DNA of 64,000 bases. Origin: Sarea resinae. Lineage: Eukaryota. The notes beneath the pieces were generated by a model. That model searched no databases and was not told the origin of the DNA. It was given only the letters and a program-made list of their open reading frames with translations. Positions 6,080 to 32,941 of the stretch are shown here, one piece after another. Numbering within the stretch: the stretch's first letter is position 1; each line of letters begins with the position of its first letter. The stretch is from contig JAPEUD010000006.1 in the NCBI GenBank assembly GCA_026026165.1, forward strand, positions 62,001-126,000, given 5' to 3'. Made by a program: the position numbers and the translations under genes.

Positions 6080-7940
6080 ATAGATAGGTAGGTAGGGATG
6101 GGCTTAGATTAATTCCATTCATCTTCTGCCAGTCTCATCTCGTCTCGTCTCATCTCATCTCATTTCCTTGCATCTCCTCGTTCTAGTCCATCTCCTCGTT
6201 CTAGTCCATCTCATCTCATTCCCATTTCCTTCTCATCCCATTTCCTTCTCATCTCATTCCCATTTCCTTCCCATTTCCCTCCCATTTCATTTCATCTCTC
6301 TCCTTTCGTCTCATTTCCCTCCTTCGCTTCGTCAGTTAGCTGGCACGGCTTAGCATAGTCTTCTTCAACAATTCTTCAACAATTTCTCAAACAAATACCT
6401 TAAACAAATACCATATAGCAACGGCTCAGCTCAGCTTAGCTCAGCTCAGGTCCGGTCTGGTGTGGTCTGGTCCAGTCGGGTCAATGGCTCAGTAAAGCGT
6501 GGAATGGGTTCCAGCGGTTTTCAGCGGTTGTCAGCGGTTGTCAGCAGTTCTCGGGTGGCTTAGGTGGCTCGGTGATTCTTCTTCTTCTTCTTCTTCTTCT
6601 TCTTCTTCTTCTCCTGGCGGCGATGGCGATGGCAACGACGACGCGTGCTGGATGGATGGATAGATGGGAAGAGGGATAGGAAGCATTTTGTTTTTGTTTC
6701 GGTTTCATCTTGTTTCATTTCATCGGCGTTTTATGGGCGATTGAGTATGTCTACTGTGTCTGCTAAGTTTACTGTGTCTACTGTGTCTGTTGAGTCTACT
6801 GAGTTTACTGAGTTCACTGTGTCTGCTGTGTCTATTAACTCTTGTCTCGTCTCGTCTCGTCTCGTCTCGTCTCGTCGTACATTATGGTATGGCATGGTAT
6901 GGCATGATGTATTGTGTTGTAGCGTATTGTATTGTAGTATAGTGTATTGAAGCGTATCATATTGAAGCGTATCATATTGAAGCGTATTGTGTTGAAGTGT
7001 AGTGTAGTGTAGTGTAGTGTAGTGTAGTGTAGTGTAGTGTACTGTATCCCGTTATAGCAAAGCAAAACACATCTCATCACCCTCTCTTCCCCATTTTGCC
7101 TCTTCCCCCTTTCCCCTGGCTAATTCCCCTACTACTAACCTTTCCCTACCACCTTTCCCCTTTGATTTACCCCCTCTTCGTCTCTTTGTCTCTTCGTCTC
7201 TTTGTCTCTTCGTCTCTTCGTCTCTTTGGGTTTATTTCCTCCCCTTGTTCGTATTTTTTTCTTCTTTTTTTCTTTTGTAAGATTGGTTGGTTGGTCAGTT
7301 GGAGGGCAGGTTTAATTGTTTGATAGTATGTTTAATGAATGGATGGTTGGTTCGTTAGATGGATGATTAGATGGTTAGATTGTTTGGATTGTTTGATACT
7401 AGGTTGGATGGATGGATGGATGGATGGTATACACCGCCCGCGCGCGTGTGACGGGTTCAAGACCACGGGACTCTACACACAGAGGGGGGGAAAAGGGGGG
7501 TGTGGAAAAAGGCAGAAATTACTATAAATGAGAGATTGGTTGACTAGTACGGCATGAACTTAGATAAAAGTAAAGTGAACTAAAGTAAAGTACTCTACAG
7601 ACAGAGAGGTTTGTAGTTGTGTAGGTGTGTAGGTAGGTAGGTATACGCGTTGTACGGTAGAGACACTGAGAAGGGGGGGTTCTCCTCGCTGCCTCCTCTG
7701 CTTCTGCTCTGCTTCTGCTCTGCTTCTGCTCTGCTTCTGCTTCTGCTACTTCTGCTTTGGCTCCTCGTTTGACGATGACGGGGCGCCGTCTTCCGAGGCA
7801 AAGTCTCTGATTTTCCTATTGTGACGAATCTCATCCAAACCCCATCCCCATCCCATCTTTCACTTCTCTTCTCCTATCTTATTGTCTCTCCTCTTCTCTT
7901 CTCAACTCATCCCTTCCTTCTCATTTCCATCCCTTCTCAC
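6080..7940. repeat. Compound microsatellite / low-complexity spacer between convergent genes
   Basis: (TTC)12 at 6576-6611, (AGTGT)9 at 6996-7040, (TCTCG)n near 6845-6875, ATTGAAGCGTATCAT repeats near 6946-6985, (GGAT)n, (CTGCTY)n near 7698-7757. Confidence 0.9.
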
Positions 7941-7946
7941 CATAAT

Positions 7947-16219: not shown

Positions 16220-18049
16220 AGATTCGGAGAGAGGAGGGAGGGGGAGGGGTGAGGTGTTTCATCGTCCATCTTTTCGAAAGCATAGCGAAGGCGTTTTTTT
16301 CGTTTCTGTTCTGCCTTCCTTTCAATCAATCAATCAATCAATCTATCAATCAATCCATCAATCAATCCATCAATCAATCAATCGAACCCGTCCACCTTCC
16401 TCGTCGGTATCTTGCCATCTCAAGCTTCTTCTCGTGTCGTGTCCTCCGTTCTCTGGGTCGCGGAAAAGCAATCTTTGCATCTATTGGCCAGCCAGACACC
16501 CAGATACCTAGCCTACCAGGCGGACACCCGGACAGAGAGCTAGACAGGTAAACAGACAAACAGAGACAGACAGCTATCTTGCTATCCCAAGCTTTATCTC
16601 GTGTCGCGTCCTCGGTTCTTGGCCAAGCGGGAATGACGACCAATGCATCCCTTAGCCAGACAAACAGACAGCTAGCTAGACAGCCAGACACCTAGACAGA
16701 TGGATTGAGACCTCTCTCTCTCTCTCTCTCGCTCGCTCGCTCGCTGTGTATATATATAGAACCACACACCTAGGAAGAACAAAAAAAAAACAAAAAAAAA
16801 AACGAAGAATCATGTCCTATCCCATCGTCTCCTGTACCTATGATTATCCCTAAGCGCATGCCTATGCCTATGTCTTTCGTCTATGTCTATGCAACTATAC
16901 CTATGCCTATCCTACTATCTAAGACCGATAATCCTGTTTAATTATCCACCTAACATGAACACTCCCGTCCTAAAATTCTATCCAACTCGTATCCAACCAT
17001 CCTATTCAACCGACCATCCAACCAAACAACTACCTAACCATCCTATCCAACCATCCTATCCCTACCCCTATGCAACCGTCTAGCCATCTAGGTAGCCATC
17101 CAACTATCCAGCCACGATACTCCTATCCCATCCTATCATCCGCTTTCCGCTTTCCGCTTCCCGCTTTCCGCTTCCCGCTTTCCGCTTCCCCATCTTCCAC
17201 GCTCCCTCTCACCTACCTGTGCACCTATTCTACCTATTCTACCTATCCTACCTATTCTACCGGTTCTACCGATTCTACCCATCCACCCGCCCGGACGCCC
17301 GCCCGTCTTTCTGCAATCCCCACACATATACACATATCCTCACATATCCACACAGACATGCACACACACACAGAGAGAGAGAGAGAGGGAGGGAGGGAGA
17401 GATGCTGGGGTCGCATCAAGCCGAGATGTGGGTTCCGTCCCCGTCCCCGTCCCCGTATCCGTGGCTTCTTTCTAAGTACCATACATAGGCTAATTGGTAT
17501 CTCGCACGTGGGGCTGGGGGGAAGAGGAAGGGGGGGGGGGGGTTGTTTATTAAGCTGATCCGGTCGTAGGTAGTAGGTCAAAGGTAGTAGGTATCAGAGA
17601 CCAGAGACCAGAGACCAGGAAAGAGAAAAAAGAAGACTGCCAAGCTGGGTGCAACAATGAAACCGAACGGGGGCACGGATGAGAATATGGTGATGAAGGA
17701 AATCGTTTATTAATCATTTCGAATGCATTTCTATTTTTCATGTGACTATCATAATACAGGAAGAAAGCCCGAGAGGGAGAGAGAGAAAAGAGGGGAGGAT
17801 GACAGAGGGAGAGTTGTGGACATGTATGATGTCTAGAGGGAGAATTGAGAGGTGGGGAGAGAGGGGAAGAACGATAGAGGGACAAAAGGAGAAAAAGGGA
17901 TGGGATAGGAAGAACGGAGAACAGAGAAGAGAAAGAAAGGAAAGAGAGGAAACCATAGAAGAACCGAGAGAGAAAAGAGGGCAACGCCAGATCGAGATGC
18001 ATGCCGCTTGCATATATGCTTACAAACCACTACGGATACAAAACAATGC

Positions 18050-18080
<31 letters not shown>

Positions 18081-18170
18081 AGCAATACTAAACTCAACCA
18101 TTCACTCAACAACCAAAACCAAAACCCAAAATCGGTAACAAAAACAACCCTCCAGCCCGAAACACAGAGA
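16220..18170. repeat. Compound microsatellite / low-complexity spacer between convergent genes
   Basis: (ATCA)n ~16322-16382, (CT)n, poly-A runs, (TTYCCGC)n ~17140-17190, (CA)n/(GA)n, (GAC)n ~18050-18080. Confidence 0.88.
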
Positions 18171-18175
18171 TCAAA

Positions 18176-21147
18176 CTAAGACACCGTCATGCTTTGGCTG
18201 AGACTCGATTTCCCCGGGCCTAGCTGTCCGTTTTGGCCGTTCGAGCCGGATGATGATTGGGATTGAGACTGTGACTGTTCGCGTCGGAGCGTTCGGACCA
18301 ATGCTTCGAGCTTGCGACGTTCATCTTGTTCGGCCTTTTCGAGGAAGAATTTAGCAAAGGTTGGAGAGTGCTGAAGTCAAAGTTGAGGAAATATGTGGGA
18401 CAGAAAAGCAAAGGAAGCAAACGAAAGGAGAACCCATGAGAAAAGGAGAACGGAAACACGATTACTCACCCTCAAGGCCTTGGCATTCGCTGCACGCGTA
18501 TCCCGCATCATCTTCTTGAACTCGTTCTTCAGCACCGTCGTGCCCGTCGTTTCCGGTGGATGACCACCAGGACTAGTGGCACTCCCGAGGTTACCGTTGG
18601 TAGGAGCAGAGCCAACGCCAGGGCTTTTGACGCCTAGCCATCTGACCTTCTCATCAGACAACTGCGCCTCGAGACTCTCGCACCGGTCTCTCAACCCATC
18701 GATCAACGATTCCAGGCCCTCGCGCTCCTTCTCGAACTCGATGCTCGCCCGCGTCAACGACTCGTACTCGCCAATCGTCTCGCTGAGCTCCCGCTGCAGT
18801 GCCTCGACCCGAGCTTGGAGCTCTGGTACCCCGGCCCCAGCGGACTCGCGCTCCGAGCGCAGAGAAGAGATTTCTTGCTGCAGCGACATGTTGCGAGCGG
18901 CCAGGTCATCGATTTCCTTCTGCACGGCCGGATTGGCGGCCACTTCGGCCGCACGCTGGGCTCGGGTTCCGTAGGCGCCGTCGAGTTCGGCGCGGGCTAC
19001 TGTCACCTCCGTCTGCAGCCGCACGACCTCGCCCTCAAGATCGCGCATTTCTGCCTGTATCGATGCAACTTCGTGGTCCTTCTGGGCGAGCCGGGCTTGC
19101 ATTTCGGACTCGTGGGTTTGGGCGTCGGAGGCAGCGGTGGTGGCAGCAGCGAGGTCGGCGCTTAGCTTGTTGATGCGCGCGCTCGACTCTTCCTGTTTGG
19201 ATGCGGCTTCGGCTTGCGTTATGGCGGCGTCGTCTTTGAGGTCTGCGAGTGCCGCCTCAAGTCGCTCAATCTCCTCCGTTCGTGCTTCGAGTTCCGAGTT
19301 CAAGGCGTCTTCCTCGTCCATTTTCGACATGGTGTTCTTGAGTTCTTCTCGGGCTTCGCGCGCTTCCCGTGACGTGTGTTCCAGCGTTACTTTCATGTGC
19401 TCGTACTCGTCGGTAATCTGGGCGAGTTTGGCGTCGCGCGCCGAGTCGGAGGATTGATTCATTTCGCGCTGTTGTTCGACCTGGCGACGAAGAATGTCTT
19501 TCTGCTCTTCCAGGCGAGTGGCGCGGCCGCAGAGCCATTGGACTTTTGAGGAGAAAGCTTGCAAGGAGAAGGGCTCGTTGGGATTGATCTGGTCGTCGGC
19601 ATCGAGGCCGACGCCGCGTTCTTGATCTTCGCGATGGCGGGACTCTTCCTGCCCTGCTTGGATGATGTCCCAGAGACCCAGCACGACGGTTTCGAATTTG
19701 TCTGCTTTCTCTTGGTGGCCGGCGAGCTTCCCGATGGACATTTGGGCCGAGTCTTCGAGACTGTGGAGCTGATTGTCGATGATGCTGAAGCCTTGTTCCA
19801 GGTAGTCGACTTGCTCGCGGAGACTCTGGCCGGAGAGACGCGGTGGAGGCTTGAGGTCTTCTTGGGTTTCGGTGTTGATGATTGATTGGTAGATGCGTTG
19901 GTTGACATCTTCTAGTCTCTCTTCCATTGCTTGTTCGGCGCCTTGGACGTCGTCGAGTGCCGCACTCAGCTCTTTCAACTCCTTCTGCTCTCTGTCCAAG
20001 GCACCCAGTCCTTCTTCAAGATAGTCTAGATGGGCGACCAGAGTAGACCCAGCTGCGGCTGCACCATCCGCCTGCGAGACCGGGGGTTCTGCGTAGCTGC
20101 GATTCTGTTGAGGTTTCGCCTGAACAATCAATTCCCGCAGACGATTATTCAAGTCTTCCAACTTCCTCTCCGTAGAAATGACTGCCTCTGTCTGCTGAGC
20201 GAATTCTGCAATCTGAGAGTCAGACCTCCCATGCGATCTCCTGCCACCAACACTGCCCCTACTTCCTCTATCACGAGGCTCACCGAACTCGCCCAGTCGA
20301 TCTGCTGTGCGGTAGAGACTCCTTTCGTCAAACTCATCACCATCTTCCATGGCTGGGACGCTGTTTCTACTGTTCGAATACGTGTAGATGCTCTCCGGGC
20401 TCCCGGGCGGTATATTTGGCGGCAAAGGGTCCTGCGGACCTCTCGCCTTCTTCGAGGGGCCCTTGTGCGTCATCTGCAGGATACCAGCCGTATGTTGCAA
20501 CAGGCGACGTTGAATCTCTGTCGCGCGCCTGTCCAACTTCCACAGCTCATGGGCTAGATCGTCGCATTTTCGAGATTGAACGGCGAATTCGTCGCCATCG
20601 CGAGCCTGGGTGTCATTGCTGGCCCTACGACTCGCGAGGCTCCTCCGGCTCTTGCGGGCGTCGCCAGAGAGTCGACTGAGGGATCTTGCCGCGTCGCGTA
20701 CCTTGGACTCCAAAAAAAGCTTGCGCCTGGAAGCCTCTGCTCGGCTTGAAACAAGCTTATATTCCTTCTTCAATCGATCTACCTCTTCAAAGGAGAGGAT
20801 CTCATATTCAGCACTGTCGCCCTTGGCGGTCTCGACGAGAAGATGAATGGCCACGGAATCGTTGGAGCTGAATGCCTTTGATGATCGTGGTCGTGAATCC
20901 TCGAGCTGCATGCACCACACTCAGTCAACTACCGTCCCCACAAAGAAAGATACGCGCTTCCACTTACGTGACCGAAGACTGGCGATTCCTCGTCAATCTC
21001 CGTCAAACCACCTCTGAAGCCGTCCATCAGGACTTTTGTGGGCGGATAAAGAGGCGGCGAAGAAGTGAACTGGGGGCTCCCAACTCCGAGGTCGAGGTCC
21101 TGGCTAGAAGAGTACGAAGGAGTCCTTCTAAAGCCGGTGCCGTTCAT
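18176..21147 (-). CDS. UDS1 (up-regulated during septation) domain coiled-coil protein; exons 21147-20968, 20905-18470, 18334-18176
   Basis: HLLVETAKGDSAEYEILSFEEVDRLKKE, LESKVRDAARSL, RLLQHTAGILQMTH, VARAELDGAYGTRAQRA, LKNEFKKMMRD..ALR|AEQDERRKLE; long coiled coil. The start codon is the least certain part. Confidence 0.82.
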
Positions 21148-23933
21148 TCTTTTGGAGCCTCCCCACGACTTGGGAACAGTGTTGTCGGTCCGTGGTAGCA
21201 GGTATTGCCGGCTGAGAAGAAGATATGCGGAGACGACGGGAACAGCGCGCCAGGAACGAATTATTGTTGGATCTCAGTCTAGACCCCCGAGGAATACAAA
21301 TGGCCAAGCGGCAGGGTATGCGGAGAGAAGGAATGAAGGGTGGCCCGGTTCTGGCCTGCCGCGATGCCACAGCCACCGACTATTTCTAGTTCTAGCGTAT
21401 CCCCGGACAACCCTTGGATTGTTGCCGATGCTGACGAGGCCGCTGCTTACGAGAAGCGAATGGCGAGAATGGGACAGATGGTCAAGCCATGTTCGAGGGA
21501 TCTGTTCCAGGGCAAGAAGAATAATGATAGACGATATCAAGATGTCAAGATGTCAAGATGTGAGGTGTATCCGTCGTCAGTGCTCGAAAGTGTCGAAAGA
21601 TCAAATTATATGATTGTACAGAGATGTAGCGCAAAGTGACCCGTAATCTGCAATTTCACGCTTCACGCTTCACGCTTCACGCTTGGGCCGATCGGCTGGG
21701 CGAGGGAGAGCGCAACGAGAGTAGTGCAAGGCGGTGATGGGCGGTACGCAGTACTGTCGTGCTCAGTTCTACGCGGTGCCGGATCAGATGTACGGGAGGA
21801 GAAGGAAGAACAGGGGGGGTCTCAGGGGGGATGGGACGCATCCATCGATGGGGAGCCATTGGGATCAATTGGGAGCAATTGGGAGCAATAACGAGCAATA
21901 ACGAGCAATAACGAGGAGCCATTGGGGCCAATCTGGGCGGTGGGACCAGGGGCAAATGGTCTACTCGTACCTTAGTAAATGGCACACTACCTACGAAGGG
22001 ACTAACCGCCCTCTCTCTCGCCCCTGGCTAATGGCGAGGAGGAGAACTGGTCAAGTACTCGGTACCACGAGGACTGTACTCGAGGACTGTATTTCTTCGG
22101 AGACCAGGCCAAATGAACACGAAAAGGCACACGGAACCAGAGTCGTGGTGATCAAGCTATCACTCCTACAATCTGGTGGTGCCCGAGCCCTAGGTGAGGC
22201 TGAGTAGGTGCGTCAAGATGCAACAGACGCGGATAACAGAATGATCTCACCCGAATCCTCCCATCGGTACGACGACCTCGGGCTGAATGCGGCTACGGGG
22301 TCACGCGTCTGGCTCCGAGCCTTCGTCCATCCTCCAGCTCCTTGAGGGCTGTGTAACGACAGACCGCGAGGAGACATCTTCTCATCTTCACATCTTCACA
22401 TCTTCACCGACATGGCAATATGGCCCACTACATATTGCTGCATCTTCCCGCCGACGGCAGTACGCGTGACTTCTTCTCGATTCGTAAACATAGCGACGAG
22501 CTCGAAGCATTGCAGTGCGTAGGCATGCTGGAGCCGCCATCTCCAGAGATGGATCCGCAGCAGCTCTGGTGGTGGTGTGTCGATGACCCTCCCTCGATCG
22601 ATGGTTGCACTTGAGCGAAAGGACACCGTCAATCTTATCTTCACCTTCCGATCCCCTCCTTGCTCTCTGTAACACAGACCATTGGTGAGAGGATCTTCTC
22701 TTCTCTTCTGCTTCAGCGTGCTGCCAGCCAGGGCGTCCTGGTGCACCCTCGGGGCCTCCCGCGCCCCCAAACCCCACTTGGGCTCCGCGTCACCGATTGT
22801 CCGTCCAGCATAGACGCGATTGTCTCCAATGGCTCAATCGGTCGATCAAGAGTCGATTAGGAGCTCGTCTCTTATCTGACGCAGATCGAAAGCCTGATTG
22901 TGTCGAATAATTACCCGTGTGCCGGCCGTTTGAGTAGGTTGATGCGGGGTTTGCTTCCTCTCTCGTCTCATGAGCTACTGGCCGTGCCACTCCTCTGGCC
23001 TTGCAGCTGAAGCTATTGAATGTGCTGTGGTCTATAGGGACGACGATGACACTTGACAGCGCGTTGGGTTCTAACGTCGCTCCATGTCTCGGGACTGAAG
23101 CTTTCTCTAGTATGAATGAACATTGCTATGCTTACTCTCTTGTCTCTACTGCTGCTGCTCCCAAGACTGAAAGTCATCTCCAAGGAATCTTGTTATCTTT
23201 TGACCTTTGCAAACTTTGAGAACGTGAAGTCGGGTCGCGGGAGAAACTGCTGGAGATGGTTATGTTGACATACTCGACAAAGCCCCTGGGTCGCAAGAGC
23301 GCGTTACGGCCCGGAGATTCTCGTCACACTGCTTGGCAAGCCTTCTCATCGAGATGTCGGGCAGTCGTGTTACTAGCTTTAGACTGCTTCACCGAATGTG
23401 CCGATCTCTCACAAAGTGATACTCGCTGATGAGCGCTTCCATATCTGCATCTCGTCCGTCACGGATCTGGCCGATCACCTTCTCCGTTGCCTGTGCGCAA
23501 TAGGAAAACGGAAAGTCGCATCTCGATGCTCATCCCGCCAGCAATTGAGTTTCGAACCGTCCGATCGGTGGGACCAAGAAACCTTCATGTCTCAGCTCTC
23601 TTCACATATGCCCCTCTAGTATCTCATGCATCTTAGGCCTGCTACATATCTTACCCGCGCAGGCTTCCTGGATCTGGATGGTTGGGCCCCACAAGTGACA
23701 ACGAAAAGAGATCAAGTGGCTGAGAGCGCGAGCCGTGGAAGACTATTTACATCTAGCTTCTCCCTTCCTCGAGAACCTTATTCTCCCATCCTCTTTGCTG
23801 CCTTGACTTATCCGCTACACTTCAATACAGAGGAGCAAACGGTCGGAACAAGTCCAAGCTCTACGTTGTCTTTTTGTCAACAGTAACGCCCGCCCTCAGC
23901 ATACCTCGACCTCTCAGCTTTCCAACTTACGAG

Positions 23934-24303
23934 ATGCCGTCTCGAATCGGCCTTTTCGGCCTCCTCCTTGCCGCTCTGCTCCACTTGGCCTCCGCCTTCC
24001 TGATACCATACATTCCTCCTCCCCCTCTGCCTGAATGGCCTTCTGTCAGCTTCGTTCCCTTTCCGACCAGTGATCTTCCTCCGCTATGCACAGGCGCCTT
24101 TGAGGAGTTCACTGTCGAATGCATTCCTCCACCTCCGGACATTACAGACTTCCCTTTCCCGATCGAAAAGCGCGAGCCTCTGTCGGGCACACCGGTCAGC
24201 TTCCCGTCTCCAATTATCATCCTTCCGTACAGGCTATTAACAGCAATTAAAGAAGAGGGAAGTAGAATTAGCATGGCCCCCTGAGCCCGCTCCCGTCCAG
24301 TGA
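23934..24303 (+). CDS. Small secreted Pro-rich precursor with KR processing site(s); ends 24284 unspliced or 24303 if intron 24195-24243 is used
   Basis: Hydrophobic signal-like N-terminus MPSRIGLFGLLLAALLHLASA, two Cys, and an IEKR-EP site. No recognisable homology. Confidence 0.5.
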
Positions 24304-24980
24304 CTTCCGACCGTTGCCCCACCAAAGTTTCTCCGCGAATTCCACGGTTACTGTTACCGTTCCCTTGGGTTTCAACTAGACTCTTGGTGATCGCGGCAGT
24401 TAATTGGTCATGTTGCGGGTACGAAGCTCTACTCGTCATCTGCTCCCTTTTCATCTCTGACCGGCACTTGCAATACGGTCTTGGATGAAGGAAGCATGAC
24501 AACGAGCAAGCAGTGAGGTGGAAGCCAGCTCAACCAATGCACTCGAATCAGCCGTGCGTCTGTCCGTCTGAACATCTATCTATTTTCTGCGCTACTTTCA
24601 TGTCGCTTGACGCCCCTGATTTATTTATCGTCTCTCGTCCTGCGCGAGATGATCATGCCGCTCCTTTGGCGAATAAAAGAACGCTAGCTATATTCTTCAG
24701 CACTAAAACATCGAATTGGACTGACTGTTCTTGATTGACATCCTTTACTGACGAATGCTCCATATTGTCTGCTTTATCGGCAATGGCTTCGCATGTTGGC
24801 CCATGTCCTCATATCTGCCCTATTGCATCTTCGTTCCTTGATCTTGACCCCACTCCGCTTTGATCTGCTATCTTCTGCCAGCTTTGCTGTAGCAACCGCC
24901 GCGGTTAGCAGGATGACACATAGCGGAAAGGTATGTCTGCTCTGATGTGTGAGTTCTTGGCATTCTCGACCCAATGGCGT

Positions 24981-26650
24981 ATTCACCACCCTGCCTTGCC
25001 AGTCCACTTTTCATATTTTCAGCAAAAATCGTCGAACGTCTCAGTGCCCTCACGTCGCGTCTCCCCAGCAGACTTCTTCTGACTGTTGACTCCTCGGAGG
25101 TCTCTGATTGGCTTTCATACTCGATCAAAACAAACGGATAAGCCACTGACGAGCAATCGCGTCGCGCTGATAAGAGGGTAGTGCTTCATTGAATTGTTTC
25201 TTGGTAAATATCTGGTATTCACTCCTTTACAGATTCACTGCCCACCCACCTACCCTCTACGCCTTATTTCGAGCCAAAAATCGGCGAACGTCTCAGGGCC
25301 ATCACGTCGCGTCTCCCCGCCGGACCATCTTTGCTCTTTACTTCTTCTCGGTCTCTGATTGGCTTCGATAGCAAAACAAAACAAATGGATAAGCCATAGA
25401 TAAGCAATCGCGTCACGTTGATAAGGGTTCACGTGCTGTTTTCGATTGACGGTGATGGTCTCTGGCTTCAAGGTTCTTCACACATTCACTCACAGGTCCT
25501 GTTGAGAGTCACTGCCCATCGGAAGCCCCCTACTCGATGTTTTCGACCAAAAATCGTCGAACGTCTCAGAGCCAACACGTCGCGTCTCCCCAGCAGATGC
25601 CTTTTGACGGTTTACAGCTCCTAGCTTTCTAATTGGCTCTGATTCGAGAGCAAAACAAACCGATAAGCAGCGATAAGCAAAGTGGTCGCGCCACGTCCAT
25701 TAGGGGGCAAATGCCAGTCTACGCGTCTAGAGAAAACCTCAGCCTAGATACTCTGCATCATCGGGGCTTTGACATTCACACCCACCACCCCTTTTGGGTT
25801 TTCAACAAAAATCGTCGAACGTCTCAGCCGGATCCGTCGCGTCTCCCCAGCGCCTCTCTTTGAACCGTTGACGGGATCAAGGCCGGTCATTGGTTCATCG
25901 AGGCCTTTGTAAACAAAGCGATAGGAATCAGGAATCAAACGCGTGGCATTGATAAGCTCTCATGATGGTGAGGTCGTGAGATCGTGAGATCTTCAATATC
26001 TAATCTACAGCTTCTGTGGTCCTACATTCACTATCGGGACACCACGCGCGTCCCCTTATTTTGAGCAAAAATCGTTGAACGTCTCAGCCCACCCCGTCGC
26101 GCCTCCCCAACGTCTCTGTCTCGACTGTTGACCGGATCCACGCCTGTAAATGGATCATCGACACCTTTGTAAACAAATCGATAAGAAGCAGGAATCGAAC
26201 GCGTGGCATTGATAAGCCATCACGATCGTGAGATTGTGAGATCTCCAATGTCTCATTTACAGCTCCTGTGGTCCTCCAGCACATTCACTACCTCATCGCC
26301 TACATTCACTCTCGGGACACCCACCACCCGTATCCCCTTATTTTGGACAAAAATCGTCGAACGTCTCAGCCCAGTCCGTCGCGTCTCCCCAGCGTCTCTG
26401 TCTCGACTGTTGACCGTCTCCACGTCTCTGATTGGTCTATTGACGCCAGTGTCAACAAACGGATAAGCAGCAGATAAGCAATCGTGTCGCGTTGATGCGC
26501 ATTCTAGATTCACCCTCCTTTTGGACAATGATCGTCGAACGTCTCAATGATGCGTCCACGGCAATCTCCCCAAAAGCTCTTAAAAGCGTTCAACGCAGTA
26601 CCTGAATTCCAGGTGGCTGATGGGCTTGATGGTGCCAAGATAACAAACGC
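24981..26650. repeat. Diverged tandem array, 6 full + 1 degenerate units, each with a ~150-bp fixed-spacing motif core
   Basis: CAAAAATCGTCGAACGTCTCAG (0-1 mismatches) at 25023, 25275, 25548, 25806, 26066 and 26348, degenerate at 26526. Each is followed by CGTCGCGTCTCCCC, GTT[G/T]AC, ATTGG, ACAAA and GATAAG at near-constant offsets. Confidence 0.95.
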
Positions 26651-26954
26651 ATCTGTAGGTACAATTGAATCCTATGGTATTCTGGGCCCTTTGCTGTTAC
26701 ACACTATATATGAATATCAATGTTCTGCCGTAAAGGTACGATCCAACGTCGCGATTCGGACGGGAAAGAGAGGTCATGGCCTGCTCCTTCCTTTCTGACC
26801 ATGCTGTTTATACACGCATCTTCGTTCAGTCGATCCAGCACGCGACCATCTCCATCTATTATGTCTGTATTCGTAGCCTCCAAGCGTTCAGTCCTCACAG
26901 CATCCCCAACGCCGCATTTGATTCAAACTCTGCATCTACAGATACCAAGACTCA

Positions 26955-28718
26955 ATGTCTGACTCCGAGGACGCTCGCGCTCCCCTCTCGGACGCCACAA
27001 ATTCTCCCAGATCCCGCTCGCCGTCTCCAGTCTTCTTGACCGCCCGATCGCGACAAGGACAGCCCCAACAGCAATCCTTCAACATCCGCCGCAAAGTCTC
27101 CGTCCGCACCTTCAGACGTCGTTCGCAAGACTCGTCCGAATCAGCCCCGAGCCCGCATCCTTCTCTCTATGATGCGCCAGGCTATCATGACGCCAGTGGG
27201 GATTGGCTCTCGGGCACGTCGACATCGAGACAACTTCAGATGGTGTCTTCGCTGCTGGCGGAGAACTTTGCTTCAGATCAGTCAGGCGAAGACGGTGATC
27301 CGGTGGTGGATGCAGAAGATGGAGCATCGCCTTCGTCACCGCCTCTCAAGGTTCCAGATGCAGGTGCAGGATCAGGCACAACTTCGCCGCCGGTTGTCCG
27401 GACCACCACCGAGCCCCTCGAGACCATCATCGAGCAAAAGAGTCATCTAACGCTCCGTCCGAAATCGTCTCTCCTTTCCAAAATCAATTCCATGATCCCC
27501 ACAGCCGCCAGCGGCAAATCGGTGTCTACCGACACGCTCTTCGGGCGAAAGCAGTCCTTCTCTCTCCCGTACCTCCCTCTCCACTCCCACCAGCACGACT
27601 GCTCCTCTTCCTCGACGGAATCCGGACCAGCTCTCAACCCCGACCTCCTCTGCCCTCAACCACAAGACTACCCCACACGCCCGATCCGCCCACCACCCTT
27701 CCGCGTGCCCACGCCCCCAGGACTGCCCCACTGGCCGCCTCCGCGCCCAAACCGTAGCCAACCGCGTCCCTTTACGGCGCGCAATCTCCTCGACTTGCTA
27801 CGTCTCCGAGGCTCTACCGCCACCGCCGCGCGACTCCACAGCAGCACCCACGGCTACGGCGGTACACAGAGCGGGTACGGAAGTTTTGTCTCCCAGGGGC
27901 TAGAAGACCACCCCTTCCATCACGCCGACGTTGCCTCCTCGGCACGAGACAGCAACGGCGAGGCGCTGTACGCTCCTCGTCTCGTCGGCTTGCCCGACGA
28001 CGACGACGACGACGATAGCCCCGTGTCCGGGCTCGGGAGAAATCTTCCAGACCGAGATCCCACGTCGCAGCGGCCACACATCGGCATCCGCGTCTCGTCG
28101 GTCAGGGGTAGCGCCGTGCCCATCCGCCGTCTGCCCCATCCCGCCGCCGCTCCAGCAATAGGCCCCACAAGCAGAGTCCCAGGATCAGCCTTGGCGTCTC
28201 CCTCGGCGTCAGCCAGTACGACCACGCCCGCACCACCACCACCACCCGCGCTCCTACCACCAGCGCGCACGATCACGCTCTCCGAAGCCCGAGCCATTCC
28301 GCGCGTCGCGAACCCAACCACGTCCCGTGATCCACCTAGCACGAGTACCGCCAACCCCAATGCCAACCCCACCCCCACCCCCAACGCAGGCCCTCATGCA
28401 AGTACCAACACAGCCGCCCGTGCAAAACGCACGTGTCCGCACCGTCCGCCCGCGGTCCTGCTCAGTACGCCCGACGGCCTGCGCACGCTGGGCGGCAGCG
28501 GGGGCGAGTGCGTGCGGTGTCGGGCCAGTCGGTGTTGGGTTGGCTGGAAGAGCGCGTGCTGTTGTGGTCGGGGGATCATGGGCGAGAGTGATGATGAGGA
28601 TGAGGAGGAGGAGGTGATAGAGGAGGTGGTGGTGGAGGATGGCGGGGGGCAAGTGGGTGGTGGAAATGGTGGTAGGAATGGTGGTGGAGGTGGTGGTAGT
28701 GGTGTTCAGGGGGCCTAG
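26955..28718 (+). CDS. Hypothetical Pro/Ser-rich protein with Cys-rich and acidic C-terminus
   Basis: 587-aa open frame with a good ATG context; LETIIEQKS and RVPTPPGLP motifs; C-terminal CPH...CVRC...CW...CCCG. Confidence 0.7.
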   Translation: MSDSEDARAPLSDATNSPRSRSPSPVFLTARSRQGQPQQQSFNIRRKVSVRTFRRRSQDSSESAPSPHPSLYDAPGYHDASGDWLSGTSTSRQLQMVSSLLAENFASDQSGEDGDPVVDAEDGASPSSPPLKVPDAGAGSGTTSPPVVRTTTEPLETIIEQKSHLTLRPKSSLLSKINSMIPTAASGKSVSTDTLFGRKQSFSLPYLPLHSHQHDCSSSSTESGPALNPDLLCPQPQDYPTRPIRPPPFRVPTPPGLPHWPPPRPNRSQPRPFTARNLLDLLRLRGSTATAARLHSSTHGYGGTQSGYGSFVSQGLEDHPFHHADVASSARDSNGEALYAPRLVGLPDDDDDDDSPVSGLGRNLPDRDPTSQRPHIGIRVSSVRGSAVPIRRLPHPAAAPAIGPTSRVPGSALASPSASASTTTPAPPPPPALLPPARTITLSEARAIPRVANPTTSRDPPSTSTANPNANPTPTPNAGPHASTNTAARAKRTCPHRPPAVLLSTPDGLRTLGGSGGECVRCRASRCWVGWKSACCCGRGIMGESDDEDEEEEVIEEVVVEDGGGQVGGGNGGRNGGGGGGSGVQGA

Positions 28719-29260
28719 AGTCGTGCGTGGGCCGTATTAGGTAGGGGACGGGTGGTAGATGTGCTGGTTGGTGTCAGGGCCATTGTTATACAGTATCGGT
28801 CACAGCCACGCCCACACCCACACCCACAGTCTTAATTACAGTTCCAGAACCAGAACCAGAACCAGGACGTCCTTATAGCTCTAGTAGTAGTCAATAGCTT
28901 TTCCTTTCAATAATAACAGAGAGATATTCACGCCCTCTGAACGAGTCGGTTTTGGGACAACCAAAGAAGATTAATAGAAATGTTGAAGCGGATGTATCTG
29001 TATCTGTATCTGTATAGATATATATATAGATATATAAATATATCCAAAAACAAATCCAATTAAAGGAACAGTGCCGCAAACGATGAGGGATATACATCAT
29101 ACCATAGCTTCTCATAGCTTATCATATCATAATCAGGCATACACACCGCCGACGACGACCACAAACGACCACGCGAACCCTCCCAAATGCCCCTCACCAA
29201 AAAAAAAAAAAAAACCGAACAAGAAGCGCAAAAACGCTAAAAAGATGGCATCAGATGGCA

Positions 29261-32200
29261 TCAGATGCGACCGCCCTCGACGACCTCGCGGCCCACGACC
29301 TCGACCTCGCCCGACTCGGCCGTTCGCCGCCGCTCCAGCACCCACCGGTCCCCGCCCATCTCGTCTTCTTCTTTGAGGTAGGTGATGCTATCTGCGCCGT
29401 AGCCTCCTCCTCCTCCGCCGCCGCCGCCGCTAGACGAGTCCCGGCTGTGTGTGTGTTGCGTGCGGGACTGCACGTTAGTGATCTTGGCGGCGACGGTGGC
29501 CGATGCAGGCGAGGAGAGCGGACCGCCGGCGCTGCGTTGGCTGCTGTTTTGGCTGGAGGTAGGCAGGGAGAAGGAAAAGGTGTGGGTGGGTGAGACGGAC
29601 GAGGAGACGGCGCTGCTTTCCGGAGTCGTGGTATTAGTGGTAAAAGTGGTGGTGTTGTGACTGGCATGATTCGGGGGCGAGATATCCCAGTTTGGGACTT
29701 GTTGGTGTAGGTGAAAGGGTGCGGGAACCGGAAATGCTGCCATAGCACTCGGCATGGTAGCAGTAGCAGCGCTGTAGTGGTTATCGATCGTGATGGTGGG
29801 ACTCCCAGGCGCGGAACCAGCACCCTCGTCCTCCTCTTCCTCGTCGTCTTCGCCCTCTTCATCCTCCGAGCCAAATCGCACATCGTCCGTCGAACTGGCC
29901 AGACTATATGTCGAGCCCGAAAGCGGCGCACAAGGAGTCTGAGACGACATGGCCCCGACAGCATGGCTCATCCCGACACCCCCGCCCAGTGGCGGGAAAT
30001 ACGACAGAGGTGACGTAGCACCACCCGTGGGGCTCTGTGCGGGCGAAGCACTACCATTACTACCGCCCCAAGCACCCTTGCGCAGCTTCATCAGCGCGCC
30101 GAGTGAGAGCTCGTCCTCTTCAAACGACGGGCTCATCATGCCGGCCAATTGCGCCAGACCGGGGCTATTGAGGGGGTGGGCCGACTGCGGACCCGTGGCG
30201 TGTATGGAATGGATTGAGCTAGAGATGAGCGAGTTGCGATTGCTGTATTCGCTACGTTCGGTGATGGGCGTGAGATTCGGCTCTCGCAGCGCCATCATGT
30301 GGCCGCTCTGGCTGCGAATGAGGCCGTCGAGCGCACGCGGTCCGAAGTAGCCACCGTTGAAGTACTCGGCTTCGCCCGTACCGCCATCGGCCTGCGCATA
30401 AAACCCAAATTCCTGACCATAGATGCCCTCGGCGTCGTTGGCGAGAGCCTCAGCGTTTGCTTCAGCAATCATGGGATCATCTTCGAGAGCGCCGTAATCA
30501 AAATCGTCTTCCGTGCCAAAGCCAAACTCGGGCTGAGTTGAGGTAGTCTCTTGGCTGAAACGGCCCTCGTCTGGTATTAGACCGGGTTGAGAGCCCTCGA
30601 GGTTAACATCATCAATGTCACTACCATGAACGCCGTCTGTATCCACGCTGTCGCGACGGACAAATTTGCCATCCGCTGCAGCCTGATTAGCCGCAGCGGC
30701 CAAGGCGTCGTGATAAGCCTCCAGCTTTGCCTGAGTGAGACCACCAGCGGCTTGCGGTTTGGCAAGCGAGCCTCGATATCCTAGATTGCCACCACGAGAG
30801 AAATTGGGAGAATCATCAAACGATGGTCCGACTTCAGGCAGAACGTTTTCCTTTTCTCCATTGGTTTCAGCCAACGGATCGGCTGTGATGGATGAAGCTT
30901 GAGGTTCTATGTTTCGCACTCGCCGCTCATGGAAAGGTCCATTCTCATCGTCGAATATCGACTCGTCAAAGGCTTCTCCATTGTCATCGTGAGGCAGATC
31001 AATGAGGCCATCGTCAAAGTAGAGATCATCATCTTCGTCGTCCCGGGGTGCTGCATTGACAGGCACATCTTCGCCACCTGGAATGCCACGAGATAGATCC
31101 ACCGAGTGCGTACTACCTACAGCCTCAGGATTCACTGTCGAGACCAGTCCCTCATCAGCAGCAACGACTTCTTCTTTGTCCTTTGAAATTTGAACTGGTG
31201 GTTCTCCTGCTAGTGCCAATCCAATAGCTTGACCGCCCGAGTTTCTCGGCGTGCGAATGGTGATTTCAACCGGACTTGTCATGCTGATTGGAGTAGCAAC
31301 TGCAGACAGTGCAAAATTAAACCCCACACCTCCTGTGCGCTGCTTTACGTCTGCATCGGGGTCAACATTTACACCTGGAATCTCTTCCTCAAATCCAGCA
31401 CCGTCATCAATATCGCCATATTCGAACATGTCATCCTCATCGAAATCGTCGGATTCCCGAGGAAGCGGCTCGGGGTCTTTATCAGTGGCAGCCTTGGACT
31501 TGTGTTTCTCCTCCAAAAGCTTCTCTTGCGCTGCTGAGCCGACACCAGCTAGATCGAAGCTGAAGCGAGAGGCATTGCTCGTGAGATGTTTCGGAAGCCC
31601 AGAAGGCTGGAATGAGGGATCTATCACCGAGGAAGCTCTTGAGCGAGAGTTTTGCTGAGCTGAATTTTCCAGTTCCGAGACGTTTTCAGTGGCAGACTCT
31701 TCCAGAGCGACGGGATGCGGTTTTGCTGTAAGATTGGTGAGCTCTTCTTGAGATGGCACGAGCTCTAGGGTAGTGGAAAATGGTCTGGCAACGGACGGAA
31801 CAGGAGGAGCTTCGCGTTCAGGGAGCGGTACTGATGCCACCGGGATAGCTGGTCCCACCAGCTCCCGTGGAGTATTCGTAGCAGTATCTCGTCTAGCCTC
31901 AGGCTCCTCAACCTCCTCTCCAAAATGTTCCCTAAAAGCGGCCATGTGCTCCTTTTCTGCGAATCTGGGACTACTGGTCGCAGAGTCCGGCGTATCCACA
32001 TACTTGTCCTGAGCAAAATCAGGGCCCCTGCGCCGACCGTGTGAAGGATTGAAACTAGACGAGGCGGGTGGGGTACCTGGCGCGTCGCTGTAAGAGAAGT
32101 TCCGGCGAGGCCGCGGAGCGCTGAAGTCGTGAACACCCTTCCCTCGGATGCTGGGATCGAAATCGTCGGGCATTTTCATACCCGGTATCGCCAGACTCCG

Positions 32201-32941
32201 GGTAGAACCCGATTCACTAGAAGAATATCCCATTGCCTGAGACGATCTCCTCCGCATCAGGAGTGACATCGGATTCAGAAGATTGAGCTTCGTCTTGCCG
32301 GTTCGCAGATGCGGCGCATTTGGCGACGTCTGGGAGCGCTTGGTTGGAGGAGGCGGTGGTAACATGTTGGAGGATGATTGACCGGTGGAATAGAAAGACG
32401 ACGACGATGACGAGAGGATGAATGGTGCAGGCTGGTTATCCAGGCTCGAGCCAGCGCTGCTCCGAGTGTTGGGCTTCACGAGCTCTTTCATAAAACCTTG
32501 CCGTGCCATGGTATCCGTCTTTTCTTCCTTGTCCGGCACCTCGTCGACGGTGATAACAGGACTAAGTGAAGATGGCGCTTTTGCTGCCTGCTGATACTCC
32601 GTCTCAGAGCCTCTACGCTGCCGTTCTCCCCGTTCGTCGAGCGCATGACCTCCCCAAGCCGTTTTTTCTCGTGCTACTGCATCCGGTTGTTGATGTTGAC
32701 GTTGCGATGAGGCATAGCGTGACGCAACGCGGGGAATTGGCGGTAGGATAGGCGGCAGAGGCGAGATAGGAGAGCTGGAATGTACGCTATCACTATCGTA
32801 GACTCGAGGTGGGGGAGGCTGGGAGAAGGAATCCGTCGACTGCAAGGGGGATTCCTGGAGATGCGGGGATGGCAGACTTGGCGAGGCCGGATTCGACGTC
32901 GAGGCGCCGCGTTTGTGATGCGACCGTAGATATGCAAACAT
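29261..32941 (-). CDS. Conserved fungal hypothetical protein (largely disordered, 1226 aa)
   Basis: 3.7-kb uninterrupted ORF with motif islands LNLLNPMSLLMRRRS, IRGKGVHDFSAPRP, SRFSFD, YGQEFGFY, REPNLTPITERSEYS, WVLERRRTAESGE. Confidence 0.85.
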   Translation of the reverse strand: MFAYLRSHHKRGASTSNPASPSLPSPHLQESPLQSTDSFSQPPPPRVYDSDSVHSSSPISPLPPILPPIPRVASRYASSQRQHQQPDAVAREKTAWGGHALDERGERQRRGSETEYQQAAKAPSSLSPVITVDEVPDKEEKTDTMARQGFMKELVKPNTRSSAGSSLDNQPAPFILSSSSSSFYSTGQSSSNMLPPPPPTKRSQTSPNAPHLRTGKTKLNLLNPMSLLMRRRSSQAMGYSSSESGSTRSLAIPGMKMPDDFDPSIRGKGVHDFSAPRPRRNFSYSDAPGTPPASSSFNPSHGRRRGPDFAQDKYVDTPDSATSSPRFAEKEHMAAFREHFGEEVEEPEARRDTATNTPRELVGPAIPVASVPLPEREAPPVPSVARPFSTTLELVPSQEELTNLTAKPHPVALEESATENVSELENSAQQNSRSRASSVIDPSFQPSGLPKHLTSNASRFSFDLAGVGSAAQEKLLEEKHKSKAATDKDPEPLPRESDDFDEDDMFEYGDIDDGAGFEEEIPGVNVDPDADVKQRTGGVGFNFALSAVATPISMTSPVEITIRTPRNSGGQAIGLALAGEPPVQISKDKEEVVAADEGLVSTVNPEAVGSTHSVDLSRGIPGGEDVPVNAAPRDDEDDDLYFDDGLIDLPHDDNGEAFDESIFDDENGPFHERRVRNIEPQASSITADPLAETNGEKENVLPEVGPSFDDSPNFSRGGNLGYRGSLAKPQAAGGLTQAKLEAYHDALAAAANQAAADGKFVRRDSVDTDGVHGSDIDDVNLEGSQPGLIPDEGRFSQETTSTQPEFGFGTEDDFDYGALEDDPMIAEANAEALANDAEGIYGQEFGFYAQADGGTGEAEYFNGGYFGPRALDGLIRSQSGHMMALREPNLTPITERSEYSNRNSLISSSIHSIHATGPQSAHPLNSPGLAQLAGMMSPSFEEDELSLGALMKLRKGAWGGSNGSASPAQSPTGGATSPLSYFPPLGGGVGMSHAVGAMSSQTPCAPLSGSTYSLASSTDDVRFGSEDEEGEDDEEEEDEGAGSAPGSPTITIDNHYSAATATMPSAMAAFPVPAPFHLHQQVPNWDISPPNHASHNTTTFTTNTTTPESSAVSSSVSPTHTFSFSLPTSSQNSSQRSAGGPLSSPASATVAAKITNVQSRTQHTHSRDSSSGGGGGGGGGYGADSITYLKEEDEMGGDRWVLERRRTAESGEVEVVGREVVEGGRI

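What the first reader, a model, noticed from the sequence alone, without database searches (positions are those of the whole stretch)
24981..26650. Non-coding tandem array of ~150-bp fixed-geometry cores separated by variable linkers
Seen: the anchor CAAAAATCGTCGAACGTCTCAG starts at 25023, 25275, 25548, 25806, 26066 and 26348, with a degenerate copy at 26526; periods are 252, 273, 258, 260, 282 and 178 bp. In the six full units, downstream motifs sit at nearly invariant offsets: CGTCGCG +29/30, (G)TT[G/T]AC +61/62, ATTGG +83/84 (AATGG in unit 5), ACAAA +106/107, GATAAG +113/114 (GATAGG in unit 4). A final TGATAAG is at +145/146 in units 1, 2, 4 and 5. Bases between motifs differ strongly, and linkers (~100-130 bp) vary in length and sequence but always keep an ATTCAC. 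No reading frame is shared by all units. Inference: conserved motifs and spacing amid divergent filler suggest selection on a DNA or RNA structure rather than a neutrally decaying satellite. The core is about one nucleosome long. I do not recognise this as a described element.
Basis: partly seen in the sequence, partly recalled or inferred. Interest (0 to 1): 0.85.

Follow-up and report, generated by a model that had tools for sequence, protein, structure and literature searches.

The report
Ancient tandem array of conserved DNA-motif modules
Seven old head-to-tail copies of a 250-280 bp non-coding module lie just upstream of a fungal gene; they keep the same short DNA motifs at the same spacing while everything between has mutated away, which fits repeated protein-binding control DNA better than an RNA gene or junk.

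Summary
The 22-nt anchor occurs 7 times, all on the + strand, with the stated periods; a profile of the unit finds only these 7 copies in the 64 kb. Conservation is strongly clustered: 73 of 184 ungapped columns are invariant in 25 runs, against about 44 runs in shuffles (0 of 10,000 as few). Motif offsets stay within 1 bp in six units.

It is not coding, not RIP-mutated and not a structured RNA (no Rfam hit, no consensus fold, no fold better than shuffles). It fills the proximal 1.7 kb of a 6-kb gene-free gap and ends 35 bp before a TATA-like box, 285 bp before the ATG of an orphan ORF.

Each unit carries a CCAAT box, two or three same-strand GATA sites, an AACAAA block, CGCG-rich blocks and the unexplained anchor.

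Contigs of the source run indicate further units outside the window, some with the anchor inverted.

Best reading (about 0.45): a tandemly repeated protein-binding control module. A transposon-derived repeat family is the main rival. No expression data or related genomes could be reached.

The parts
24975..26675 (+). The whole tandem array: 7 units of 178-282 bp, each a core of about 170 bp plus an indel-rich, pyrimidine-rich linker.
25023..25044 (+). Anchor of unit 1 (0 mismatches); the unit 1 core is 25010-25185.
   Evidence: E 7.1e-48.
25275..25296 (+). Anchor of unit 2 (1 mismatch); the core is 25262-25437.
   Evidence: E 2e-44.
25548..25569 (+). Anchor of unit 3 (0 mismatches); the core is 25535-25714.
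   Evidence: E 1.5e-44.
25806..25827 (+). Anchor of unit 4 (0 mismatches); the core is 25793-25968.
   Evidence: E 1.1e-44.
26066..26087 (+). Anchor of unit 5 (1 mismatch); the core is 26053-26228.
   Evidence: E 6.4e-45.
26348..26369 (+). Anchor of unit 6 (0 mismatches); the core is 26335-26510. The unit is a mosaic: 90% identical to unit 5 in the anchor half, 67% in the GATA half.
26526..26547 (+). Anchor of unit 7 (3 mismatches). The core 26513-26673 is whole but diverged, has a 10-bp insertion, and has lost the GATA sites.
   Evidence: (E 1.1e-27).
25137..26478 (+). Span of the twelve GATAAG sites, all on the + strand, two or three per unit in units 1-6. They start at 25137, 25169, 25388, 25399, 25420, 25662, 25672, 25951, 26180, 26211, 26462 and 26473.
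   Evidence: 12 in the array against 16 in the rest of the window on both strands, a 27-fold density.
26705..26711 (+). TATA-like TATATAT, 35 bp after the last core and 244 bp before the ATG.
   Evidence: Read; its function is inferred.
26955..28718 (+). Downstream ORF of 587 aa. It is low-complexity, has no Pfam family and has no relative in the protein collection. It is the gene the array would control.
18377..20911 (-). Divergent upstream gene (Uds1 / DUF7801 coiled-coil protein), 4 kb from the array.
20912..24974 (.). The rest of the 6-kb gap. It has no long ORF, none of its 19 ORFs of 81-200 aa matches Pfam, and it holds no copy of the unit.

Best explanation
The array is a tandemly repeated cis-regulatory module: protein-binding DNA that forms the upstream control region of the + strand gene starting at 26955.

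An ancestral module of about 260 bp was duplicated head to tail at least six times, long ago, and reshuffled by unequal exchange. Since then only the protein-contact blocks and their spacing have been kept.

Each core would assemble the same set of factors on a fixed scaffold:
- the CCAAT-binding complex on the CCAAT box (read on the - strand);
- a GATA-type zinc-finger factor on two or three same-strand GATA sites;
- a forkhead- or HMG-like factor on AACAAA;
- factors for the CGCG-rich blocks;
- an unidentified factor on the 22-bp anchor.

Seven such platforms in a row would act additively or cooperatively on the adjacent core promoter.

Shown: the array is real, non-coding and not a structured RNA; it is conserved in blocks at fixed spacing; it abuts a promoter-like position. 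Inferred: protein binding, which factors bind, and the target gene.
For: 1. Conservation is clustered, not uniform. 73 of 184 columns are invariant, in 25 runs against 44.4 expected (0 of 10,000 shuffles as few); lag-1 autocorrelation is 0.36 against a shuffle sd of 0.07.

2. Blocks are 96% identical both within and between the two unit groups. Filler is 63% identical within groups and 47% between. This figure is descriptive, because blocks were defined by conservation.

3. Block offsets are constant to within 1 bp over 114 bp in six units, while linkers vary by tens of bp.

4. The conserved blocks include motifs I recall as standard fungal promoter elements: CCAAT (CCAATCAG on the - strand in 4 of 7 units) and GATAAG. 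GATAAG occurs 12 times against 16 in the other 62 kb, a 27-fold density; GATAAGC occurs 9 times against 5, a 61-fold density.

5. Position fits. The array ends 35 bp before a TATA-like box and 285 bp before the ATG of the next ORF, inside a 6-kb gap with no other recognisable gene.

6. Other explanations fail here.
- No open frame and no 3-base periodicity: 35, 33 and 32 variable columns of 56 each, p 0.84.
- No Rfam or tRNA hit.
- No consensus fold and no fold better than shuffles.
- No RIP bias: 349 transitions against 471 transversions, and RIP indices like the rest of the window.

7. Contigs of the source run carry the anchor in both orientations. That fits a DNA-level recognition site rather than a strand-specific RNA signal.
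Against: - There are no data on expression, chromatin or factor binding.
- No orthologous locus could be compared, so selection is inferred from paralogous units only.
- A 22-bp block that is near-invariant is long for one transcription-factor site and matches nothing I know.
- The factor motifs are short and their assignment is recalled, not tested.
- The same-strand orientation of all GATA sites follows from tandem duplication and is not independent evidence.
- The presumed target gene is an orphan with no relatives, so there is no functional logic for such heavy control.
- Contigs of the source run show tight clusters of forward and inverted anchors (forward, 15 nt, inverted, about 12 nt, forward) and a short form of about 67 bp without the CCAAT/GATA part. 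That looks more like a transposon terminus or a stand-alone binding-site family than like copies of one promoter.
Confidence: 0.45

Rival explanations
1. The units belong to a dispersed, transposon-derived repeat family (MITE- or foldback-like) that expanded locally into a short satellite. The anchor would be a terminal or subterminal transposase-binding repeat. The array would have no host function, or only an incidental one.
For: One search is the evidence.
- Of 55 contigs of the source run laid on the 12-kb stretch, 33 are less than 99% alike and 41 lie on it only partly.
- They pile up on the array: summed depth is 473-1070 there, against 262-384 in the other 25 bins.
- One contig carries a full core that differs from unit 3 at 14 listed places plus 4 indels and equals none of the 7 units.
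- Unmatched contig ends and inserted letters show anchor-like sequence in inverted orientation (20 of 22 to the reverse complement) next to forward anchors, and a short anchor-to-anchor form of about 67 bp.

Transposon termini made of sub-repeats, and satellites born from them, are in print. I saw only the search listing for PMC4079207 and PMC5932611.
Against: - There are no terminal inverted repeats around or inside the array, and no inverted anchor anywhere in the window.
- No transposase-like ORF or Pfam hit lies in the 6-kb gap.
- All matching contigs have about the same depth as unique DNA (333-434 against 338), so this is not a high-copy family, although the tool warns that depth is not a copy number.
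- A selfish repeat does not explain why CCAAT, GATA and AACAAA blocks stay 96% identical while filler falls to 47%, unless those blocks serve transposition.
- A transposon origin and a present regulatory role do not exclude each other.
Confidence: 0.25
2. The array is an architectural or boundary element. The anchors would be docking sites for a chromatin-organising factor, for example TFIIIC binding B-box-like sequences without polymerase III, as at the fission-yeast IR boundaries. The array would insulate the two flanking genes or tether the locus.
For: - Read on the - strand, the anchor contains GTTCGA followed by a run of five T. By my recalled consensus that resembles a B-box (8 of 9 positions, by eye) placed next to a polymerase III terminator.
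- Each fission-yeast IR-L/IR-R boundary carries five B-boxes bound by TFIIIC (passages read in PMC7474672).
- The anchors occur in arrays and in both orientations.
- The array lies between divergent genes in an unusually long gap.
Against: - The last conserved C of the B-box consensus is not met.
- No A-box and no tRNA-like gene is present.
- The match was judged by eye against a consensus from memory, and a 9-mer resemblance inside a 22-bp block is weak.
- This reading does not explain the conserved CCAAT/GATA blocks.
Confidence: 0.1
3. Each unit is, or drives, a short unstructured non-coding transcript. This could be a repeated promoter with a leader, with the pyrimidine-rich linker as initiation zone and the anchor as the 5' end of the transcript. 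It could also be a small-RNA source, the anchor being 22 nt long and paired with inverted copies elsewhere.
For: - Every anchor is preceded by a pyrimidine-rich tract. I recall that filamentous-fungal transcription starts often lie at such tracts.
- A forward and an inverted anchor 15 nt apart in a contig of the source run would form a 22-bp hairpin if transcribed.
Against: - No Rfam match.
- No conserved fold and almost no covariation.
- Fold z-scores run from -0.97 to +2.36.
- There is no inverted anchor in this window, so no hairpin can form here.
- The conserved blocks look like promoter motifs, not RNA motifs.
Confidence: 0.1
4. The array is a neutral, decaying minisatellite. The apparent motifs would be chance survivors or products of gene conversion.
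For: - The units are old: pairwise identity is 60-80%.
- The array shows signs of unequal exchange. Unit 6 is 90% identical to unit 5 in one half and 67% in the other.
- This genome is rich in intergenic tandem repeats.
Against: - 0 of 10,000 column shuffles give as few invariant runs as observed.
- Blocks are equally conserved within and between the two unit groups (96% and 96%), while filler drops from 63% to 47%.
- Indels are almost absent from cores but common in linkers.
- Conversion tracts would not be this short, nor fall at the same places in all units.
Confidence: 0.05

Closest known systems
Tandemly repeated enhancer or UAS modules upstream of a gene. Examples recalled, not read here: the promoter-bearing spacer repeats of Drosophila and Xenopus rDNA, and the 126-bp enhancer repeats before CYP51 in Penicillium digitatum.
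   Same: Head-to-tail copies of a module carrying transcription-factor motifs, lying directly upstream of a core promoter, with the copy nearest the gene the most diverged.
   Different: Those repeats are young and near-identical, or shorter. Here the copies are 60-80% identical with only the motif blocks kept, which implies long maintenance of every copy. The 22-bp anchor has no known factor. Activity is untested.
Homotypic clusters of GATA-factor and CCAAT-complex sites in filamentous-fungal promoters, such as nitrogen- or iron-regulated genes. A paper on SreA/SrbA/AtrR control (PMC10294635) appeared in the listing; only its abstract was seen.
   Same: Clustered GATA sites within about 30 bp of each other and a CCAAT box in the same module.
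   Different: The sites do not carry the extended iron-regulator form as I recall it. The sevenfold fixed-geometry repetition is not a feature of described promoters. The target gene is an orphan with no tie to nitrogen or iron metabolism.
Satellites derived from foldback or MITE elements, for example Tetris of Drosophila virilis (PMC4079207; search listing and start of abstract only).
   Same: A unit of a few hundred bp found both as a tandem array and as other copies, with inverted arrangements of a terminal motif.
   Different: This locus has no inverted repeats, no transposase and no high copy number. Block-wise conservation points to function.
B-box arrays bound by TFIIIC at the fission-yeast IR-L/IR-R boundaries (PMC7474672, passages read).
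   Same: Several copies of one short protein-binding motif in a row in intergenic DNA, acting on DNA and independent of strand.
   Different: The resemblance of the anchor to a B-box is partial and judged by eye from memory. The period here is about 260 bp, and other conserved motifs lie between the anchors.

Membership tests
Tandemly repeated cis-regulatory (enhancer/UAS) modules | Lies upstream of a polymerase II gene, within regulatory distance. | tested here: met
   The last core ends at 26673, a TATA-like box is at 26705-26711, and the ATG of the 587-aa ORF is at 26955.
Tandemly repeated cis-regulatory (enhancer/UAS) modules | Short motif blocks are conserved above the surrounding sequence. 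| tested here: met
   25 invariant runs against 44.4 in shuffles, 0 of 10,000 as few. GATAAG density is 27-fold that of the rest of the window.
Tandemly repeated cis-regulatory (enhancer/UAS) modules | Factor occupancy, and an effect on transcription of the neighbouring gene. | not testable with these tools
   No RNA run was listed for this DNA and no genome or chromatin data are held.
Tandemly repeated cis-regulatory (enhancer/UAS) modules | Conservation at the orthologous locus in related species. | not testable with these tools
   No eukaryote genomes are held. Contigs of two other organisms from the same study covered only coding parts of the stretch.
Structured non-coding RNA gene or cluster | Match to a described RNA family. 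| tested here: not met
   0 hits at gathering score in the whole window. One chance-level hit (E 2.9, 14.6 bits against a threshold of 40) in the array at relaxed settings. No tRNA.
Structured non-coding RNA gene or cluster | A conserved secondary structure with compensatory changes, and folding better than shuffled sequence. | tested here: not met
   Consensus energy is -0.19 kcal/mol (+ strand) and -3.91 kcal/mol (- strand); 0 of 7 and 3 of 16 predicted pairs are compensated. 14 single folds give z from -0.97 to +2.36.
Protein-coding tandem repeat | An open frame through the units, and variation concentrated at third codon positions. | tested here: not met
   Every frame has stops in at least 6 of 7 units. 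Variable columns number 35, 33 and 32 of 56 per phase, p 0.84.
MITE- or foldback-derived satellite | Terminal inverted repeats bounding the unit or the array. | tested here: not met
   No inverted anchor in the window at up to 3 mismatches. No inverted repeat brackets the array.
MITE- or foldback-derived satellite | Further copies dispersed in the genome. | tested here: inconclusive
   Contigs of the source run carry a variant full core, as well as forward and inverted anchors that are absent from the window. Their places in the genome, their number and their ends could not be seen.
TFIIIC B-box array | A match to the B-box consensus in every unit. | tested here: inconclusive
   By eye, against a consensus recalled from memory: 8 of 9 positions on the - strand of the anchor, with the last C not met. 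No tool test was run.
RIP-mutated duplication | An excess of C-to-T and G-to-A changes, and skewed dinucleotide indices. | tested here: not met
   349 transitions against 471 transversions. TpA/ApT is 0.52 (window 0.61). (CpA+TpG)/(ApC+GpT) is 1.14 (window 1.22).
Neutral decaying minisatellite | Substitutions spread evenly over the unit. | tested here: not met
   clustering; blocks 96% identical, filler 47-63%.

The most novel reading that the evidence does not exclude
The 22-bp anchor marks a genome-wide family of docking sites for an undescribed sequence-specific DNA-binding factor. This locus would then be a row of seven fixed-geometry nucleoprotein platforms (anchor factor, CCAAT complex, GATA factor and others), kept intact over a long time as an architectural or super-enhancer-like element. 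No such element class has been described in fungi.
Probability: 0.15. Interest if true: 0.75.

Novelty: new variant of a known kind. Interest (0 to 1): 0.5.

Why it matters
If the reading is right, paralogous copies in one genome act as their own phylogenetic footprint. Seven old copies mark at base resolution which positions of a fungal control module are functional and that their spacing matters. That gives a ready-made design for mutagenesis and for fishing out the factor that binds the anchor.

It would also be an example of long-term retention of every copy of a repeated enhancer, rather than the recent, near-identical promoter repeats known from fungicide resistance.

If the family proves to be transposon-derived, it would be a case of a mobile element carrying host promoter motifs.

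Tried and rejected
- **Whole-genome search.** No genome is held for this window, so the other copies could not be located.
- **Expression.** No RNA holder was listed for window 22000-29500, so nothing can be said on expression.
- **Metagenome scan with 20 nt of the anchor.** It returned 2 loci. Both are the same ORF, which by my own reading of the reading frame (no family search was run) resembles a bacterial IS256-type transposase gene; the match stops after the 20 nt. I take this as chance, about what a 20-mer gives in a collection of that size.
- **Protein-collection search with a 96-aa ORF read through unit 6, to catch miscalled ORFs on other copies.** One candidate shared words; none scored.
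- **Downstream ORF.** Only itself was found among 7,999 scored candidates of near length. The 'longer' and 'shorter' length classes were not searched.
- **Protein Atlas look-up.** It was closed.
- **Earlier findings of the scan.** Nothing on this genome; the word hits were bacterial sigma-54 promoters of no bearing.
- **Motif-list script.** I replaced it with a count of all 6- and 7-mers that needs no typed letters.
- **Contigs of two other organisms from the same study.** They covered only bits of coding sequence, so no orthologous spacer could be compared.
- **Ideas rejected.** Coding repeat. RIP relic. tRNA, snoRNA or other Rfam RNA. Structured RNA. Array bounded by inverted repeats. The 20-nt identity to the transposase-like ORF as a sign of descent: it is too short and the flanks are unrelated.

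Full report
**What is there**

Window 24975-26675 holds seven head-to-tail units on the + strand. It matches nowhere else in the 64 kb on either strand, and 0 of 100 shuffles gave any match. A profile built from the seven cores finds exactly these seven (E 2.7e-48 to 1.1e-27) plus one noise hit at E 6. The 14-nt centre of the anchor occurs only in the seven units at up to 2 mismatches. At 3 mismatches there are 4 further hits on both strands, against 4.7 expected.

The periods are 252, 273, 258, 260, 282 and 178 bp. The seventh unit is a whole but diverged core with a 10-bp insertion, not only a degenerate anchor. The linkers are homologous between units as well, but rich in indels (families D8 and D10-D12).

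**Is the motif-versus-filler contrast real?**

Yes. In the six full units, 184 columns align without gaps and 73 of them are invariant. These fall in 25 runs, the longest of 11, 9, 7, 6 and 6 columns. Column shuffles give a mean of 44.4 runs and a minimum of 28, so 0 of 10,000 are as few as observed. 16 of 10,000 shuffles reach a run of 11. Lag-1 autocorrelation of variability is 0.36, against a shuffle mean of -0.005, sd 0.07 and maximum 0.27 in 5,000 shuffles.

I then split columns into conserved blocks (55) and filler (113). Blocks are 96% identical both within and between the two unit groups (units 1-3 and 4-6). Filler is 63% identical within groups and 47% between. That split is defined by conservation, so it describes the contrast; the test is.

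Offsets of the invariant runs from the anchor start are constant to within 1 bp in units 1-6: +11, +29/30, +37/38, +105/106 and +113/114. The units are old, with pairwise identity of 60-80%. Unit 6 is a mosaic, 90% identical to unit 5 in the anchor half and 67% in the other half, a sign of unequal exchange or conversion.

**What it is not**

- Not coding. Every frame on both strands has stops in at least 6 of 7 units. Variable columns show no 3-base periodicity: 35, 33 and 32 of 56, p 0.84.
- Not a RIP relic. There are 349 transitions against 471 transversions, and the dinucleotide indices resemble the rest of the window.
- Not a described RNA. No Rfam family reaches its threshold in the window. 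The only relaxed hit in the array is at chance level, E 2.9. There is no tRNA.
- Not a structured RNA. The consensus fold of the seven cores is worth -0.19 kcal/mol on the + strand, with 0 of 7 predicted pairs compensated, and -3.91 kcal/mol on the - strand, with 3 of 16. The 14 single-unit folds have z-scores from -0.97 to +2.36, none better than its shuffles.
- Not bounded by inverted repeats.

**Setting**

The window is fungal by its genes: an Uds1/DUF7801 protein, TFIIH p62, 2-oxoglutarate dehydrogenase E1 and a GCFC/G-patch protein. The array sits in a 6-kb gap between a - strand Uds1-like gene (18377-20911) and a + strand ORF of 587 aa (26955-28718).

Nineteen ORFs of 81-200 aa in the gap have no Pfam match. 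The last core ends at 26673, a TATATAT lies at 26705-26711, and the ATG is at 26955. The array therefore occupies roughly -35 to -1730 relative to a plausible TATA box.

The downstream protein is low-complexity, has no Pfam family and found only itself in the protein collection at near length.

**What the conserved blocks are**

- A count of all 6- and 7-mers, with no typed motifs, shows GATAAG 12 times in the array, all on the + strand, against 16 in the other 62 kb on both strands (27-fold density). GATAAGC occurs 9 times against 5 (61-fold).
- CGTCTC occurs 16 times against 83 (7-fold), all on the + strand. ATTCAC occurs 9 times against 18 (18-fold).
- Each of units 1-6 carries ATTGG at +83/84, which is CCAAT on the other strand; unit 5 has AATGG. 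Each also has an AACAAA block directly before the first GATA site, and CGCG-rich blocks.
- From memory, not tested here: CCAAT is the site of the fungal CCAAT-binding complex, clustered GATA sites are those of GATA zinc-finger regulators, and AACAAA resembles forkhead or HMG sites.
- The 22-bp anchor matches nothing I know. It is preceded in every unit by a T-run that forms a short near-palindrome with the anchor's A-run (invariant T42-T44).

**Copies outside the window**

No genome is held. Laying the contigs of the one public DNA run that holds this stretch gave a lead. That run may be the source of the assembly, so it is not independent.

- Of 55 contigs laid on 18000-30000, 22 are at least 99% alike and 33 less; 41 lie on the stretch only partly.
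- Summed depth is 473-1070 in the five bins over the array and 262-384 in the other 25 bins. The tool warns that this is not a copy number.
- One contig (depth 333) spans anchor to CCAAT block with 14 listed substitutions and 4 small indels against unit 3. By my reading it equals none of the seven units.
- Letters between joints and unmatched contig ends include a 22-mer that is 20 of 22 identical to the reverse complement of the anchor. No such sequence exists in the window.
- The arrangements seen are: forward anchor, 15 nt, inverted anchor, about 12 nt, forward anchor. A short anchor-to-anchor form of about 67 bp keeps the ATTCAC motif but lacks the CCAAT/GATA part.

So the unit, or at least the anchor, belongs to a small family elsewhere in the genome, or less likely in parts of this array that the assembly omits. 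It is used in both orientations.

**Reading**

Block-wise conservation at fixed spacing, recognisable promoter motifs, the position against a core promoter, orientation-independent use of the anchor and the failure of the coding and RNA readings together favour protein-binding DNA. I take it as a repeated cis-regulatory module for the 26955 gene (about 0.45).

The main rival is a transposon-derived family that expanded locally (about 0.25), supported by the inverted-anchor clusters. Against it, this locus has no inverted repeats and no transposase, and the conserved blocks look like host promoter motifs. The two readings are not exclusive.

An architectural or boundary role (about 0.1) rests on a partial, by-eye resemblance of the anchor's - strand to a B-box followed by a T-run. 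Five B-boxes per boundary repeat are documented in fission yeast (PMC7474672, passages read). An unstructured transcript or small-RNA source (about 0.1) cannot be excluded without RNA data. Neutral decay is disfavoured (about 0.05).

**Limits**

- No RNA run is listed.
- No related genomes could be reached.
- The single metagenome scan returned only a chance 20-nt identity inside one ORF that I read by eye as a bacterial IS256-type transposase gene.
- A search for miscalled ORFs on other copies found nothing.
- Factor assignments are recalled, not tested.
- Literature searches were used only to document the comparison classes. I found no description of an element like this one, but three word searches cannot show that none is in print.

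Noticed in passing
window 6000-8000, 16300-17650, 21400-22700: Intergenic DNA of this genome is packed with short tandem repeats of 4-40 bp periods; TRF lists 255 rows in 64 kb. The 260-bp array is of a different kind: TRF did not report it at all.
   Followed up: no
window 20912-24974: About 4 kb of further gene-free DNA lies between the Uds1-like gene and the array. Its longest ATG ORF on the + strand (23934-24284, 116 aa) begins with a signal-peptide-like hydrophobic stretch, has no Pfam match, and could be a small secreted protein gene or nothing.
   Followed up: partly
window 25964-25991 and 26224-26243: The linkers of units 4 and 5 each carry 2.5-3.5 copies of an 8-bp GATCGTGA micro-repeat. 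It is a younger repeat nested in the old one.
   Followed up: no
L001 188-207 (-) and L002 5001-5020 (+): Two metagenome contigs share a 20-nt exact identity with the anchor inside one ORF that I judged by eye, without a family search, to resemble an IS256-type transposase gene. In that frame both read the same short peptide as the anchor does. I take it as chance, because similarity ends at the 20 nt.
   Followed up: partly
window 26955-28718 and 29261-32941: Two long, low-complexity, proline/serine-rich ORFs (587 and 1226 aa) have no Pfam family. The first has no relative in the protein collection at near length.
   Followed up: partly
window 25023-26500: The offsets of the conserved blocks from the anchor (about 0, 30, 62, 84, 106 and 145) are close to whole numbers of helical turns. 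CGTCTC-type pentamers recur at about 21-bp steps within each core. This may mean one-face binding; no significance test was run.
   Followed up: no
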